Source: Candidatus Thorarchaeota archaeon
Lineage (GTDB): Archaea > Asgardarchaeota > Thorarchaeia > Thorarchaeales > Thorarchaeaceae
DNA: 53,132 nt
Direction: 5' to 3'
Assembly: GCA_003345595.1 (NCBI GenBank)
Contig: PRDI01000086.1
Coordinates: forward strand, 1 to 53,132
Below are positions 42,883 to 46,895 of the stretch, one piece after another (within the stretch, counting starts at the first letter, position 1; every line of letters starts with the position of its first letter). A program made the translations under genes and the position numbers. The notes beneath the pieces were generated by a model. That model was not told the DNA's origin. It made no database searches and was given only the letters and a program-made list of their open reading frames with translations.

Positions 42883-43800
42883 ATGTTTGTGTTCAAGAAG
42901 GAGCAACAAGCGTTTGATTTCGGCGGCGTGACAATCGGTGGTCAGCCAGGGCAGAACCCAACTGTGCTCATAGGCGGTCTATTCTTTCAGACTCAGCCAG
43001 TCGTGAAGAACGCAAAGGAGGGCACCTTCGATGAGCAGATGGCAAAGGAGTGGATTGATACTGCGAACATGATGGTGGACAAGACAGGTCACCCACTCAT
43101 CATCCAAGCTTTCGGCCGGACTCCCGAGGCTATGGAACGGCATCTGACCTGGCTCGCAGATAACTTCGAAGGTCCCTTCATGTTCGAGTCGACAAACGCG
43201 GATGCAAGGAAACGCGCCATACAGTTCTGTGAACAGAGTGGGCTTGCAGGCAGGGCTATCTACAACTCAATCAACCTCTCTATGAAGGAAGAAGAAAAGA
43301 CGCTTCTTCGGAGCAGCCCTATCAGAATGGCGGTTGTCCTTGGATGGTCTCCGAGAGCAACAGGTCTGGCCGATCGCATGGAAACGATCAAGGCCATGAT
43401 TTCAGAGGCGAAGTCCATTGGCATGGAGAAGATTGTAGTAGACCCAGCTACAATGCCTGTGGGTGCTGGCTATGGCTTGGAGTACAGGACTATGTTAGCC
43501 ATAAAATCGGAGCTAGGTCTGCCGACCTGCCTCGGTCCTCACAATGCTCCATCCGCTTGGAAGTTCATCAAGCAGCCCGGATTAGATGATGAGGCCACCC
43601 AAATCTCAGCCGTGGTTGCATCGACTATCGCGGCGCAGCTGTTTGCCACAGACTGCATCATGTACGGGTCGATGGCTCGATCGAAGCAGGTCTTCACTGC
43701 AGTATCACTCATAGCAAATGCAATGGCAGCCGCAGTAGCTGAGGCTCAACAGGCAATTGGGGTTTCCACGCCCATATTCGAACCGAAGTCGTTTGAGTAG
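42883..43800 (+). CDS. mtrH: MtrH-family methyl-pterin:corrinoid methyltransferase (divergent copy 1)
   Basis: MFVFKKEQ..GGQPGQNPTVLIG, IYNSIN, GLPTCLGPHNAPSAW, IMYG. Confidence 0.85.
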   Translation: MFVFKKEQQAFDFGGVTIGGQPGQNPTVLIGGLFFQTQPVVKNAKEGTFDEQMAKEWIDTANMMVDKTGHPLIIQAFGRTPEAMERHLTWLADNFEGPFMFESTNADARKRAIQFCEQSGLAGRAIYNSINLSMKEEEKTLLRSSPIRMAVVLGWSPRATGLADRMETIKAMISEAKSIGMEKIVVDPATMPVGAGYGLEYRTMLAIKSELGLPTCLGPHNAPSAWKFIKQPGLDDEATQISAVVASTIAAQLFATDCIMYGSMARSKQVFTAVSLIANAMAAAVAEAQQAIGVSTPIFEPKSFE

Positions 43801-43811
43801 GTGGTGTGACG

Positions 43812-44504
43812 ATGGGCATGAATGACAATAGGAACTGGCCGCCCATACCTGGTGACTTTGAGGTAAAGAACCCCAGTTCGTGTGTTGCGATATGCACTCT
43901 TGGGAAAAAGATAGAGGTTTCTACCGACTACGCAATAATAGGCACATGCAAGACTGAGAACATAGGCATAGAGCGCATGATAGTGAACGTCATTTCGAAT
44001 TCCTGTATCAGGTTTTTCATACTCGCCGGCCCCGAGATTCCGGGGCACAAGACAGGCGCCTCGGTGAAATGCCTCCATGAGAGCGGCATTGACCCGAGCA
44101 CCAGAAGGATCCTCGGGGCTGAGGGGGCAATACCATATGTTGAGAATGTACCAATCGAGGCAGTCGAGAGGTTTCGAAGTCAGGTTCAGCTGATCAGCAT
44201 GGTTGATGTAACAGATCCGGGCGAGATAGCGCGTGTGGCTGATGAAGTGGTTTTGAGGAACCCGGGACCATACCCTGCTGATCCCATCTGGGTCGAGTTC
44301 AAGGCTAGACCCGGCAAGGCGAGTTCAAGGAATATGGGTGCGGCCATTGCGCTGTTGCCAGAGTTTGGCATTTCGTTCGACCCCGCAAGTTCACTGGTGT
44401 CGAGGATGGACCTGGTCGCATGGGTCACCACTCATCCAACAACTGTTGGAGTTGTCATGAAGAGCGACGAAACGGGAACCGCACTTGTAGGACAGGAGTT
44501 GTAA
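43812..44504 (+). CDS. mtrA: MtrA-family corrinoid protein, soluble (no TM anchor)
   Basis: WPPIPGDF, VAICTLG, KTENIGIE, ISN..IRF, cobalt-ligand His in GHKTG, GAIPYVEN. Confidence 0.9.
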   Translation: MGMNDNRNWPPIPGDFEVKNPSSCVAICTLGKKIEVSTDYAIIGTCKTENIGIERMIVNVISNSCIRFFILAGPEIPGHKTGASVKCLHESGIDPSTRRILGAEGAIPYVENVPIEAVERFRSQVQLISMVDVTDPGEIARVADEVVLRNPGPYPADPIWVEFKARPGKASSRNMGAAIALLPEFGISFDPASSLVSRMDLVAWVTTHPTTVGVVMKSDETGTALVGQEL

Positions 44505-44507
44505 GCT

Positions 44508-45443
44508 TTGTTCGCATTCGAGAAAGAGCAAGTGATTCATAACATCGGCGGCGTCAGAATCGGTGGAACACCCGGCGAGATTCCTACGGTGTTGGCGGGC
44601 ACGATATTCTACACAGGACATGACATAGTGCAGGACGCGAAGAAAGGCCTCTTTGACAGGAAAGCCGCTGAGGCTCTGATTAAGACTCAAGATGAGATGG
44701 CAGATCTTACAGGGAACCCCGCTCTTGTTCAAGTGTTCTCAGAGTCTGAAGAGGCCGTGCGTCGGTACATCGATTTCGTGACCGACATCACGGACGCGCC
44801 ATTTCTGATTGATTCAACTGTGCCTGATGTCAGGACTGCCGGCCTGAAGCACGCCGAAGAGTCTGGTTTACTCGACAAGGCGATCTATAACTCAATCAAC
44901 ATCTCTGCCACAGAGGCAGAGCTTAACGCCCTTAGAGAGATCAAGCATGAATGCGCCATCATTCTGGCTTTCAACCCCCACGACTCGTCCATTGCAGGCA
45001 AGAGGGCAGTGCTTGAACAGGGTGTGCCCGGGTTTGACAAGGGTCTCTTGAAGCTGAGTGAAGAGCTCGGAGTCACCAAGCCCCTAATTGATACTGCAAC
45101 CACTGCGATGGGTGCGGGTGCGGGCACCGCTGCAGCATTCACCTTTGTGGCAAAGGCCGTCTACGGACTGCCAACGGGATCAGGGGTTCACAATGCACCA
45201 AGTTCTTGGTCATGGCTCCGCAAGTACAAGAAAGTCAATCCAGATGCCTACCGTACTTGTGATACTGCGTCCTGTCTTATTGTCCAGATGATGGGTGCAG
45301 ATTTTGTCCTCTACGGGCCAATCAGTAATGCTAGAACCGTCTTCCCAGTAGCCGCGATGGCAGATGTGTTCGCAGCGGAGTCCGCCAGTGTTGAGTCTGG
45401 CATCGAGCCGTCTGACAGCCATCCCTTCCGTAGGCTCTTGTGA
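44508..45443 (+). CDS. mtrH: MtrH-family methyltransferase (canonical-like copy 2)
   Basis: MFAFEKEQ, PTVLAGTIFYTGH, PFLIDST, IYNSIN, GLPTGSGVHNAPSSW, GADFVLYGPI. Confidence 0.9.
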   Translation: MFAFEKEQVIHNIGGVRIGGTPGEIPTVLAGTIFYTGHDIVQDAKKGLFDRKAAEALIKTQDEMADLTGNPALVQVFSESEEAVRRYIDFVTDITDAPFLIDSTVPDVRTAGLKHAEESGLLDKAIYNSINISATEAELNALREIKHECAIILAFNPHDSSIAGKRAVLEQGVPGFDKGLLKLSEELGVTKPLIDTATTAMGAGAGTAAAFTFVAKAVYGLPTGSGVHNAPSSWSWLRKYKKVNPDAYRTCDTASCLIVQMMGADFVLYGPISNARTVFPVAAMADVFAAESASVESGIEPSDSHPFRRLL

Positions 45444-45458
45444 GAAGGTGATAGGACG

Positions 45459-46895
45459 ATGTCCACGAAGGCCAGAGTGATCAGGCCGAGGAGCATAGGG
45501 GTAAGTTCACTCAGGACCGGTCCGTTCTACACTGTGGCTTCTGTGGAGCTGGGCAATACAACAACCAAATGCATTATTGCGTCCACGAACCTAAAGACTG
45601 CAGAGATATTCGAGATTGCGAAGGAAGTCAGATTCACGCGTGACGTGAGGCCTCCTGAGAAGGGAGAACAAGTCTTCGGGAGGACTGTCACAGGCGTTGA
45701 GCTGACTCGTCAGTCGGTTTCGGAGCTGGTTTCAGCAATACTGACATCTGTACTGTCAAAGGCTCGGCTAAGTCTTGATAGCGACCTGCACTTTGTCGTG
45801 CGGTCTACAGGTGTGACAGCAGGGTTTGCACAGCCCTCCGAGGTCGGAGAGATGGTGAGGGCACTGGCTGACGGCTGTCTTGCTGCTGGAGTTCCACCGA
45901 GCAAGATGGCTGCATCGATTGCCCCAGAGAATCTGCCTGCGGACATACGACAGTTCAGCTGGCTCCGGAAGGTCTACTTCGACGGAGCAGTGGCAAGCTG
46001 TCTCCCGCCATCTAACACCGAGGTCGTGGCCAATGAGATGGAAGGGGAGCTAGTCACAGCTGGTATGAAAGGCGCTGTCAAAGGGACTGGCATAGACTTC
46101 AGAAACCCTGCTATGGTCCTGGACTTTGGCACTACGCTTGCTGGAAGGATAAATGATGGCAGCTATCCTTATGCCAAGACCATTGGTTCCTTCGCTGGAC
46201 TTGCCGGGGCTATACCAGATGCTCTTGCCAGAGGTGGAGTAGAGGCTATCGGACCAGCAGGCTGCGTTCTTGACCTGACGACAAATCCCAGTCGACGTCG
46301 TATCCAAGTAGATCCGGCATGGATAGAGCAGGTGCAGAAGCAGATCCGTGTTGAGGTCGTGCCACACTCTGCGAAACGATTCGGGACTGTCCCTGTGAAC
46401 CCCGACGCTGCCGAGGAATCCGGAGTGCTGCTCATAGGTGTGGATGCAGGCTCGAACGGCTCAGCGATCAGAGAGATAGAACATGTTGGAGCAAGAATCG
46501 TTGAAGCAGGTGGCACCGAGTTGATGATGGGGGTAATAGACCAGGTGCAGTTCCACACTATGCAGAGGATTCTTCGTGTGGCCGAGGAGCATGGGCTCAT
46601 TCTGGAAGAGACATCGCTTGGCTTGACTGGCAGGGCAATCATCACAGGAGCAAAGCCAAGCATGATCCTGAATGGGCTGCGGACAAGAGATGGATCCCTT
46701 TGGAGCGGCTCTCATCAGATCGTGTTCGTCGAGGACGGCCTAGCAATGGGCGCGGCTGTGGCAGCTAGATGCATGAACTCGATGGGAACGAGGGAGAACC
46801 CGATGGGCGGACGCAAGGGCGATTCATGTATCATGGGAGCACGCATGAAGCTGCAGAAGGAAAAGCGGGGAGGTCACCCGATTCACAGGTCATAG
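45459..46895 (+). CDS. Methanogenesis marker protein 14 family (DUF2114; ASKHA-type ATPase-like)
   Basis: VASVELGNTTTKCI, FVVRSTGVTAGF, VANEMEGELVTAG, DFGTTLAGR, DGLAMGAAVAARCMNSMGT..NPMGG. Confidence 0.82.
   Translation: MSTKARVIRPRSIGVSSLRTGPFYTVASVELGNTTTKCIIASTNLKTAEIFEIAKEVRFTRDVRPPEKGEQVFGRTVTGVELTRQSVSELVSAILTSVLSKARLSLDSDLHFVVRSTGVTAGFAQPSEVGEMVRALADGCLAAGVPPSKMAASIAPENLPADIRQFSWLRKVYFDGAVASCLPPSNTEVVANEMEGELVTAGMKGAVKGTGIDFRNPAMVLDFGTTLAGRINDGSYPYAKTIGSFAGLAGAIPDALARGGVEAIGPAGCVLDLTTNPSRRRIQVDPAWIEQVQKQIRVEVVPHSAKRFGTVPVNPDAAEESGVLLIGVDAGSNGSAIREIEHVGARIVEAGGTELMMGVIDQVQFHTMQRILRVAEEHGLILEETSLGLTGRAIITGAKPSMILNGLRTRDGSLWSGSHQIVFVEDGLAMGAAVAARCMNSMGTRENPMGGRKGDSCIMGARMKLQKEKRGGHPIHRS

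What the first reader, a model, noticed from the sequence alone, without database searches (positions are those of the whole stretch)
44330..44504. MtrA tail replaces the TM anchor with MtrB-like and MtrF-like N-terminal peptides (possible built-in MtrH dock)
Seen: after the corrinoid domain there is no hydrophobic helix. Instead there is IALLPEFGISFDPASSLV (44346-44399), then WVTTHPTTVGV (44421-44453). From memory of methanogen sequences, these resemble the MtrB N-terminus (approximately VKIAPEYNLTLDPSTGMI, sharing the PE-x5-DP spacing) and, more weakly, the MtrF N-terminus (approximately ILSNKPNIRGI). In membrane Mtr, the cytoplasmic ends of the small stalk subunits are thought to hold MtrH. 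Inference: this is a single-chain MtrA-B'(-F') fusion tethering an MtrH1/H2 dimer, either a reduced or an ancestral form of Mtr.
Basis: partly seen in the sequence, partly recalled or inferred. Interest (0 to 1): 0.8.

Follow-up and report, generated by a model that had tools for sequence, protein, structure and literature searches.

The report
MtrB-like MtrH-docking tail on soluble MtrA
In this Asgard (Thorarchaeota-type) archaeon the vitamin-B12 carrier protein MtrA has no membrane anchor and ends instead in a conserved beta-strand tail. The first ~23 residues of that tail copy the arm methanogens' MtrB uses to hold the methyltransferase MtrH, so the tail probably clips MtrA onto the two MtrH proteins encoded beside it in a soluble, pump-free enzyme.

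Summary
ORF 43806/43812-44504 is an MtrA corrinoid domain, a ~12-residue linker and a 54-residue all-beta tail with no hydrophobic helix. Both quoted peptides sit at the stated coordinates, and the tail is conserved in every Asgard orthologue examined.

The MtrB-like reading is supported.
- Tail profile against a profile of 39 MtrB proteins: hhalign P 2e-7, tail 3-25 to MtrB 4-26. Column shuffles reach 17 at most, against 38.5.
- Tail profile against all PDB sequences: the top hit is MtrB (E 0.2, weak alone).
- MtrB-arm HMM against all 53,281 ORFs of this genome: this ORF ranks first (E 0.3, weak alone).
- AF2 tail model: it superposes on the M. mazei MtrB arm at 0.8 A over 22 residues.

That arm is the published dock for the MtrH dimer. 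Its Glu9 partner, MtrH Arg211, is invariant in MtrH1 (60/60) and absent from MtrH2 (0/55). The Asp5 position is acidic or Gln only in MtrH2. This fits an MtrH1/MtrH2 heterodimer with one dock.

The MtrF-like reading of the second peptide is not supported (P 0.37). Binding itself is inferred, and reduced versus ancestral is unresolved. This scan has reached the same conclusion on orthologues in several other Thorarchaeota genomes.

The parts
42883..43800 (+). mtrH1: a divergent MtrH paralogue. It keeps the Arg equivalent to M. mazei MtrH Arg211 (R202, nt 43486-43488) but has Lys at position 5, and its pterin pocket is altered.
   Evidence: Pfam MtrH 231 bits. Alignment to 9qtp_o places R202 opposite Arg211. 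Arg in 60/60 orthologues and Lys at position 5 in 57/60. D103E in 60/60, T32G in 59/60, Lys242/243 patch lost.
43812..44309 (+). MtrA corrinoid (cobamide-binding) domain. The ORF may start at GTG 43806 or ATG 43812.
   Evidence: Pfam PF04208 179 bits over residues 8-168. PDB MtrA chains 8q3v_A, 5laa and 9qtq_A at E 1e-49 to 5e-62. AF2 pLDDT mostly 90 or more. The His of the GH.TG motif is invariant.
44310..44345 (+). Flexible linker (PGKASSRNMGAA), variable in sequence and basic.
   Evidence: AF2 pLDDT falls to 58-68 over residues ~161-180, with 166-169 below 50. No conserved columns in this stretch.
44346..44414 (+). MtrB-like arm (IALLPEFGISFDPASSLVSRMDL): a predicted three-stranded beta-sheet and the proposed dock for the MtrH dimer. 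The invariant Pro-Glu is at 44358-44363.
   Evidence: hhalign of A2 against A3: Prob 93.6%, P 2e-7, tail 3-25 to MtrB 4-26. Shuffle control. PDB-wide top hit is MtrB 8q3v_B. Rank 1 of 53,281 genome ORFs for an arm-only HMM. Foldseek 9qtp_E/9qts_E at rmsd 0.8 A over 22 residues. AF2 strands 3-6, 11-14 and 19-22 at pLDDT 83-87.
44415..44501 (+). Conserved C-terminal beta-meander (VAWVTTHPTTVGVVMKSDETGTALVGQEL), motif HP[ST]...E....GT.L.GKE. Its role is unknown and it has no detectable relative.
   Evidence: AF2 strands 26-31, 34-43 and 46-53 at pLDDT 71-78. G46 invariant; P33, T47 and E53 at least 90% conserved. No similarity to MtrB, MtrF or MtrG. Only generic three-strand matches, Z <= 2.5. 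An exhaustive HMMER search finds only this family.
44508..45443 (+). mtrH2: a canonical-type MtrH (TTG start 4 nt after the mtrA stop). It keeps the acidic residue at position 5 (E5, nt 44520-44522) but has Ala at the Arg211 position (A210, nt 45135-45137).
   Evidence: Pfam MtrH 402 bits and TIGR01114 407.8 bits, above its 271.4 cut-off. Alignment to 9qtp_o. Position 5 is E/D/Q in 55/55; the 211-equivalent is A/S/G in 55/55. All pterin-site residues and the Lys/Arg patch are kept.
45459..46895 (+). Methanogenesis marker 14 (DUF2114), co-oriented 15 nt after mtrH2. This is operon context, not part of the tail.
   Evidence: PF09887 593 bits and TIGR03285 581 bits. Found by a crude motif filter downstream in 39 of 54 Thor loci with enough flank. 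Also lies downstream of mtrH in methanogen locus L136.

Best explanation
The gene encodes a soluble MtrA. Its cobamide-binding domain is joined by a short flexible linker to a 54-residue all-beta tail.

Shown here: the first ~23 tail residues (IALLPEFGISFDPASSLVSRMDL) are homologous to the N-terminal arm of MtrB.

Established elsewhere: in the M. mazei Mtr cryo-EM structure that arm forms a three-stranded sheet that inserts into the hydrophobic pocket at the MtrH dimer interface, with a Glu9(MtrB)-Arg211(MtrH) salt bridge.

Inferred: the tail docks MtrA permanently onto a dimer of the two flanking MtrH paralogues. This is most likely an MtrH1/MtrH2 heterodimer in which MtrH1 supplies the Arg that pairs with the invariant tail Glu. 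The tethered corrinoid domain can then reach an MtrH active site without any membrane stalk.

More speculative: because MtrH2 looks like a normal methyl-H4MPT enzyme and MtrH1 has an altered pterin pocket, the complex may pass methyl groups between two C1 carriers through the one tethered cobamide.
For: Homology to the MtrB arm
- Profile-profile: hhalign Prob 93.6%, P 2e-7, tail 3-25 to MtrB 4-26 (own run).
- Controls: 150 column shuffles give 10.1 +/- 1.9, maximum 17.1, against 38.5; the reversed alignment gives 11.4.
- Three separate MtrB clades each give P 5e-6 to 1e-5 in the same register. With PE masked, P is 1.2e-4.
- Unbiased searches, each weak alone: tail profile against 177,635 PDB sequences puts MtrB 8q3v_B on top (E 0.2). 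An MtrB-arm HMM against 53,281 six-frame ORFs of this genome puts this ORF at rank 1 (E 0.3; next best 1.7-3.5).
- Fold: the AF2 tail model has three short strands at pLDDT 83-87. Foldseek against 350,542 chains lists the M. mazei MtrB arm 9qtp_E/9qts_E within the top 10, with the highest probability of the rows listed (0.91) and rmsd 0.8 A over 22 residues (chain identity confirmed).

Function of the arm
- Published: PMC12774963. AF2 MtrB-H2 models are reported in PMC10998594.

Partner residues
- MtrH1 has Arg at the Arg211 position in 60/60 orthologues; MtrH2 in 0/55. The Asp5 position is E/D/Q in MtrH2 and Lys in MtrH1.
- Among 13 methanogen or ANME genomes, the only MtrH with Ala at position 211 belongs to the genome whose MtrB lacks the PE motif.

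Context
- Every orthologue with a readable C-terminus carries the tail. mtrH1 is upstream in 59/61 loci and mtrH2 downstream in 52/61.
- MtrB, MtrD, MtrE and MtrG were not found in this genome, which is 83% complete.
Against: - Curated MtrB HMMs do not hit. Pfam PF05440 and NCBIfam give nothing at E <= 10. My full-length MtrB profile finds nothing in the genome.
- An exhaustive HMMER search of the tail profile against 1.84 billion representatives finds only this family, not MtrB.
- The signal rests heavily on the PE...DP motif. With both masked, P is only 0.014.
- Foldseek E is 2.3, and the single HMM hits have E 0.2-0.3, so neither is significant alone.
- The Arg5(MtrB)-Asp5(MtrH) salt bridge has no conserved counterpart in the tail.
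- The flexible tether is short, about 12-13 residues. Whether the corrinoid can reach either active site was not modelled.
Confidence: 0.75

Rival explanations
1. The tail is a self-association or other-partner module. It might oligomerise MtrA, or bind marker 14 (DUF2114) or another protein. On this reading the MtrB-like stretch shares ancestry or shape with MtrB but does not dock MtrH.
For: More than half of the tail (residues 26-54) is conserved yet matches nothing in Mtr. Marker 14 is syntenic in 39/54 loci. The MtrB Arg5-MtrH Asp5 pair is not conserved.
Against: The homologous segment is exactly the MtrH-contacting arm, MtrB residues 1-23. Its invariant Glu has an invariant Arg partner in the adjacent MtrH1. 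Marker 14 also accompanies canonical anchor-bearing Mtr, so it does not need this tail.
Confidence: 0.12
2. The similarity is convergent or a chance short motif: a PE..DP beta-hairpin on an unrelated C-terminal extension with no specific role, for example a solubility or stability cap left after loss of the anchor.
For: Only about 23 residues align. Curated HMMs and the billion-sequence search miss it. Masking PE+DP leaves P 0.014.
Against: Shuffle control z is about 15. Three MtrB clades agree on the register. Two unbiased searches each put the partner at rank 1. Predicted structure superposes at 0.8 A. The tail is strongly conserved across 63 orthologues at 28-89% identity.
Confidence: 0.08
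3. One reading: a single-chain MtrA-B'-F' fusion in which the second segment (WVTTHPTTVGV) is an MtrF N-terminus.
For: In M. mazei the N-termini of MtrB, MtrF and MtrG form one extended sheet, so extra strands after the arm could play that structural role.
Against: hhalign of the tail against MtrF gives P 0.37, and the second half alone gives P 0.55. Against MtrG the values are P 0.39 and 0.26. There are no Pfam or NCBIfam hits. The MtrF set here covers Halobacteriota-type sequences only.
Confidence: 0.05

Closest known systems
N-terminal arm of MtrB (residues 1-23) in the membrane-bound Mtr(ABCDEFGH)3 complex (M. mazei PDB 9qtp/9qtq/9qts, PMC12774963; disordered in M. marburgensis 8q3v, PMC10998594)
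   Same: The motif [IV].[LIVA][LA]PE[YF].[LI]..D...[GS].[VL] is shared, as is the predicted three-stranded sheet (rmsd 0.8 A over 22 residues). The Glu that pairs with MtrH Arg211 is conserved.
   Different: Here the arm sits at the C-terminus of MtrA, not the N-terminus of a separate stalk subunit. No stalk helix or TM helix follows it; three further beta-strands do. The Pfam MtrB model does not match.
[quoted passage not shown] 2022, PMC9635834)
   Same: This is the same gene family and lineage, so this locus is a member of that described set.
   Different: In the passages retrieved from that paper I found no mention of the missing anchor, the conserved tail or its MtrB-like arm, and it calls the subunits canonical.
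MtxA/MtxH of Methanosarcinales (mtxXAH; NCBIfam NF010654)
   Same: MtxA is a soluble MtrA paralogue encoded next to an MtrH paralogue. MtxA C-termini (..DI[IM]IS..V.[LM]DS..G[IV]I..) weakly resemble the same arm in the same register (P about 0.01).
   Different: The window protein scores 165.9 against the 279-bit cut-off and falls outside the Mtx clade (96% SH-aLRT). MtxA has one MtrH partner, a shorter tail and MtxX.
MtrA-MtrH fusion proteins of Atabeyarchaeia and Freyarchaeia (PMC11291895)
   Same: This is another Asgard solution for keeping an MtrA-like corrinoid domain with MtrH without a membrane complex.
   Different: There the link is a covalent fusion of the two domains in a phylogenetically distinct clade. 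Here a docking peptide is used and the MtrH genes are separate.

Membership tests
MtrA (PF04208 / TIGR01111) | Corrinoid-binding MtrA domain above Pfam's gathering score | tested here: met
   179.3 bits against a cut-off of 25, residues 8-168. PDB MtrA chains at E down to 5e-62.
MtrA (PF04208 / TIGR01111) | Cobalt-ligating His in the G-H-x-T-G loop | tested here: met
   His79 (230-aa numbering) is invariant in 54 orthologues and aligns with the GH(I)TG of 8q3v_A and 5laa.
MtrA (PF04208 / TIGR01111) | Equivalog score of canonical MtrA (TIGR01111 cut-off 249 bits) | tested here: not met
   172.7 bits; the match ends at residue 168.
MtrA (PF04208 / TIGR01111) | C-terminal stalk helix and transmembrane anchor | tested here: not met
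   Maximum KD19 is 1.19, against at least 2.57 in 12 canonical MtrA. AF2 predicts the tail as all-beta.
MtrA (PF04208 / TIGR01111) | Encoded with mtrB-G in an mtrEDCBAFGH operon | tested here: not met
   Flanked by mtrH1 and mtrH2. No MtrB, MtrD, MtrE or MtrG over the cut-off in this genome, which is 83% complete.
MtrB (PF05440) | Match to the curated family model | tested here: not met
   No hit at E <= 10 by hmmscan or by genome search. The full-length A3 profile also finds nothing.
MtrB (PF05440) | N-terminal MtrH-docking arm (sequence) | tested here: met
   hhalign P 2e-7 with shuffle control. Rank-1 hits in both directions.
MtrB (PF05440) | Three-stranded beta-sheet fold of the arm | tested here: met
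   On a predicted model only: AF2 strands 3-6, 11-14 and 19-22. Foldseek 9qtp_E at rmsd 0.8 A over 22 residues, probability 0.91, E 2.3.
MtrB (PF05440) | Cytosolic stalk helix plus C-terminal TM helix | tested here: not met
   The tail ends 29 residues after the arm and is all-beta.
MtrB (PF05440) | Physical binding to the MtrH dimer interface | not testable with these tools
   No multimer prediction or experiment was available. The only indirect support is MtrH1 Arg in 60/60.
MtrF (PF09472) | Sequence similarity of WVTTHPTTVGV or the second half of the tail to the MtrF N-terminus | tested here: not met
   hhalign P 0.37 for the whole tail and 0.55 for the second half. No Pfam hit.
MtxA (NF010654) | Equivalog score (cut-off 279 bits) and clade membership | tested here: not met
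   165.9 bits. Thor MtrA are monophyletic (99) and sit outside the Mtx clade (96) in the quick ML tree.

The most novel reading that the evidence does not exclude
MtrH1-MtrA(B' arm)-MtrH2 is a self-contained soluble methyl relay. The arm fixes one cobamide carrier at the interface of a heterodimer of two differently specific pterin methyltransferases: MtrH2 for methyl-H4MPT, and MtrH1, with its altered pocket and missing Lys patch, for another C1 carrier such as folate made by the adjacent MetVF. The tethered corrinoid would alternate between the two active sites, linking two C1 pools without a membrane or ion pumping. The docking arm would be a mobile module, also seen fused to an MtrG copy in a methanogen. 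It may have sat on MtrA before the stalk subunits existed.
Probability: 0.25. Interest if true: 0.85.

Novelty: new variant of a known kind. Interest (0 to 1): 0.62.

Why it matters
Mtr is the central energy-conserving enzyme of methanogenesis. How MtrH is held on the complex was only resolved in late 2025. This locus shows the same docking arm re-used on a different subunit in a non-methanogen.

That gives a concrete, testable explanation of how the widespread Asgard 'MtrAH remnant' assembles without the membrane stalk. It also predicts which residues to mutate: the tail Glu and MtrH1 Arg202.

It offers a small soluble three-protein system for studying MtrA-MtrH methyl transfer structurally. 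It also bears on whether Asgard C1 metabolism links the methanopterin and folate pools, and on how the Mtr stalk subunits evolved by moving modules.

Tried and rejected
- Pfam and NCBIfam scans of the whole protein and of the last 63 residues at E <= 10 gave no MtrB, MtrF or MtrG hit.
- The Pfam MtrB model and my full-length MtrB profile found nothing in the window's genome.
- An exhaustive HMMER search of the tail profile against 1.84 billion representatives gave 11 hits, of which 9 checked or identifiable by id are fragments or full copies of the same Asgard MtrA. There was no MtrB and no stand-alone tail protein.
- MtrF-like and MtrG-like readings of the second half are rejected. A second MtrB-like repeat in residues 26-54 is also rejected (P 0.23).
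- VIA-align of the tail model gave only generic three-strand matches, Z <= 2.5.
- MtxA membership is rejected on score and tree. The MtxA-tail similarity is too weak to claim (P about 0.01).
- The careful ML tree did not finish. The quick tree leaves the base of the MtrA clade unresolved, so no direction of evolution is claimed.
- A complex model could not be made, because the structure tool folds single chains only.

Full report
**What is there.** The ORF at 43806 (GTG) or 43812 (ATG, used by the gene caller; P0001, 230 aa) to 44504 has three parts. It begins with a Pfam MtrA domain (residues 8-168, 179 bits). A short variable linker (PGKASSRNMGAA) follows, and then 54 residues with no hydrophobic helix. 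The highest 19-residue Kyte-Doolittle mean in the last 70 residues is 1.19. It is at least 2.57 in 12 canonical anchor-bearing MtrA proteins from ANME-1, methanogen and Bathyarchaeota loci.

The gene is flanked by two MtrH genes. mtrH1 (42883-43800) is divergent at 231 bits. mtrH2 (44508-45443) scores 402 bits and passes the TIGR01114 cut-off. Methanogenesis marker 14/DUF2114 (45459-46895) lies downstream, and MetV-like and MTHFR genes lie upstream.

**Whose genome.** The closest proteins and loci are from Thorarchaeota, Hermodarchaeota and 'Promethearchaeota' MAGs. The genome (2.73 Mb, 83% complete) has one MtrA and three MtrH-family genes. No MtrB, MtrD, MtrE or MtrG was found over the cut-offs. 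[quoted passage not shown]

**Is the tail conserved?** Yes. In 54 full-length orthologues (A1) and 63 tails taken from fetched loci (A2) the consensus is ..LLPE[YF]G..LDP..SLV......A..S.HPS...IEV...E.GTIL.GKE. P7, E8 and G46 are invariant. All Asgard loci with a readable C-terminus carry the tail. Every canonical MtrA fetched carries a TM helix instead. An exhaustive profile search of 1.84 billion representatives gave 11 hits. Nine checked or identifiable by id are fragments or full copies of the same MtrA family, and no stand-alone version or MtrB was seen.

**Is it MtrB-like?** I fetched 39 MtrB genes from methanogen and ANME genomes with the Pfam model and read their N-termini directly. Examples are MGYVLVLPEFGLVADPVLGFV, MGVVKLLPEYGLVYEVETGKV and MSIVRIAPEINLVMDTESGTV.

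- **Profile-profile comparison.** Tail alignment A2 against MtrB alignment A3 gives Prob 93.6%, P 2e-7, with tail columns 3-25 on MtrB 4-26.
- **Controls.** 150 column shuffles of the tail give 10.1 +/- 1.9 (maximum 17.1) against the real 38.5; the reversed alignment gives 11.4.
- **Separate clades.** Three separate MtrB clades each give P 5e-6 to 1e-5 in the same register. Two divergent clades that have lost the PE motif do not match.
- **Motif masking.** Masking PE leaves P 1.2e-4. Masking PE and DP leaves P 0.014, still in register. The motif therefore carries much of the signal.
- **Unbiased search of the PDB.** The tail profile against all 177,635 distinct PDB sequences returns M. marburgensis MtrB (8q3v_B) as the top hit (E 0.2, tail 4-21 on MtrB 8-25).
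- **Unbiased search of this genome.** An HMM of the MtrB arm alone against all 53,281 six-frame ORFs returns this MtrA ORF at rank 1 (E 0.3; next best 1.7-3.5).

Neither unbiased E-value is significant alone, but each picks the predicted partner out of a very large set. Curated MtrB HMMs and my full-length MtrB profile miss the tail. It is therefore not a member of the MtrB family as defined; it shares only the arm.

**Structure.** AF2 on the full protein (pLDDT 83.6) gives a confident MtrA domain, a low-confidence linker and an all-beta tail at pLDDT 62-78. The tail alone (pLDDT 77.9) has strands 3-6, 11-14, 19-22, 26-31, 34-43 and 46-53, and the first 20 residues reach 83-87. Foldseek against 350,542 PDB chains places the M. 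mazei MtrB arm (9qts_E; 9qtp_E, a 27-residue modelled fragment) at ranks 7 and 9. These rows have the highest probability of the rows listed (0.91) and rmsd 0.8 A over 22 residues, although E is 2.3. Chain E is MtrB.

[quoted passage not shown] The earlier M. marburgensis paper reported consistent AF2 MtrB-H2 models (PMC10998594). MtrB Glu9 aligns with the invariant tail Glu (nt 44361-44363).

**Partner residues.**

| Protein set | Residue at M. mazei Arg211 position | Residue at M. mazei Asp5 position |
|---|---|---|
| 13 methanogen/ANME MtrH | Arg 11, Lys 1, Ala 1 | Asp 8, Glu 4, Ala 1 |
| Thor MtrH1 (60) | Arg 60 (window R202) | Lys 57, others 3 |
| Thor MtrH2 (55) | Ala, Ser or Gly; no Arg (window A210) | Glu 42, Gln 8, Asp 5 (window E5) |

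 The two contact residues that a methanogen homodimer offers twice are thus divided between the paralogues. That is what one would expect of an obligate MtrH1/MtrH2 heterodimer with a single oriented dock. This is inference; the paper does not say which protomer gives which residue.

A small co-variation points the same way. The only methanogen-side MtrH with Ala at 211 comes from the ANME-1-type genome whose MtrB lacks PE (MVIVINEKYN...). The Arg5-Asp5 pair has no conserved counterpart in the tail.

**The two MtrH differ in the active site.** MtrH2 keeps every pterin-site residue named in the paper and the Arg/Lys239, Lys242 and Lys243 patch proposed to bind the H4MPT tail. MtrH1 keeps Asn129, Asp196, His229 and Asn230. 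It has Glu for Asp103 (60/60) and Gly for Thr32 (59/60), and it lacks the Lys242/243 patch. Together with the MetVF-type genes upstream, this makes a two-carrier methyl relay conceivable but unproven.

**What is not supported.** The second peptide (WVTTHPTTVGV) and the whole second half of the tail show no similarity to MtrF (P 0.37 and 0.55), MtrG (P 0.39 and 0.26) or a second MtrB arm (P 0.23). Fold comparison gives only generic three-strand meanders (Z <= 2.5). This half is conserved (HP, G46, T47, E53), so it matters, but its role is unknown. It may simply extend the sheet, as the MtrF and MtrG N-termini do in the membrane complex.

**Reduced or ancestral?** A quick ML tree of 61 MtrA domains makes the Thor proteins monophyletic (99). 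They lie inside the MtrA clade, apart from MtxA (96), and join a TM-bearing Bathyarchaeota MtrA only weakly (80, long branches). The base of the clade is a polytomy, so no direction can be claimed. Simple read-through fusion is unlikely, because mtrB lies upstream of mtrA while the arm is C-terminal.

One methanogen locus carries a second MtrG copy whose N-terminus is an MtrB-like arm (L112). That shows the arm can move between subunits.

**Literature and earlier scan notes.** In the held library no paper combines MtrB, MtrH and Thorarchaeia, and the structural paper does not mention Asgard or soluble homologues. After reaching the reading above, I found that this scan had already reported the same MtrB-like docking tail on orthologues in several other Thorarchaeota genomes, with the same verdict on the second motif. 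The present report agrees with those. It adds the MtrH1/MtrH2 residue partition, the two rank-1 reciprocal searches and the masking and clade controls.

**Verdict.** The MtrB-like dock is well supported by sequence and predicted structure, though binding is inferred. The MtrF-like part is rejected. This is a new variant of a known kind.

Noticed in passing
L112:2792-3103 (+): In a methanogen genome (G121) the mtr operon has a normal mtrG followed by a second MtrG-like gene. Its N-terminus is an MtrB-like arm (MVSYLKLLPEYKLSYGIETGKIE...), and it lies directly upstream of mtrH. This is a natural B'-G chimera and suggests the docking arm is a movable module.
   Followed up: partly
L137-L165 (MtxA loci), e.g. 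L139:2011-2082 (+): MtxA proteins of Methanosarcinales-type genomes end in ..GDI[IM]IS[EG][ED]V.[LM]DS..G[IV]I.. This weakly resembles the MtrB arm (hhalign P 0.011) and the Thor tail (P 0.0075) in the same register. MtxA may carry a shorter MtxH-docking arm.
   Followed up: partly
L134 / L085 (genome G001, ANME-1 type): MtrB here lacks the PE motif (MVIVINEKYNVVLEE...), and the cognate MtrH has Ala where the other genomes checked have Arg (11) or Lys (1). This is a single case of co-variation at the published Glu9-Arg211 contact.
   Followed up: partly
window 42883-43800: MtrH1 has Glu for Asp103 (60/60 orthologues) and Gly for Thr32 (59/60), and lacks the Lys242/Lys243 patch that MtrH2 and methanogen MtrH keep. 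It may bind a different C1 carrier.
   Followed up: partly
G000:C96:7072-7899 (-), outside the window: A third MtrH-family gene (232.6 bits) lies elsewhere in the same genome. Its context was not examined.
   Followed up: no
window 43798-43812 and 44502-44510: The genes are tightly coupled. The mtrH1 stop TAG (43798-43800) lies in a GGTGGTG stretch, 6-12 nt before the mtrA start (GTG 43806 or ATG 43812). mtrH2 starts with TTG 4 nt after the mtrA stop.
   Followed up: no
L136 (methanogen genome G024), downstream of mtrH: A marker-14/DUF2114-like ORF (..VEMGNTTTKC..) lies downstream of mtrH in a canonical methanogen operon. The MtrH-marker 14 linkage seen in the window is therefore not specific to the soluble system.
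   Followed up: no
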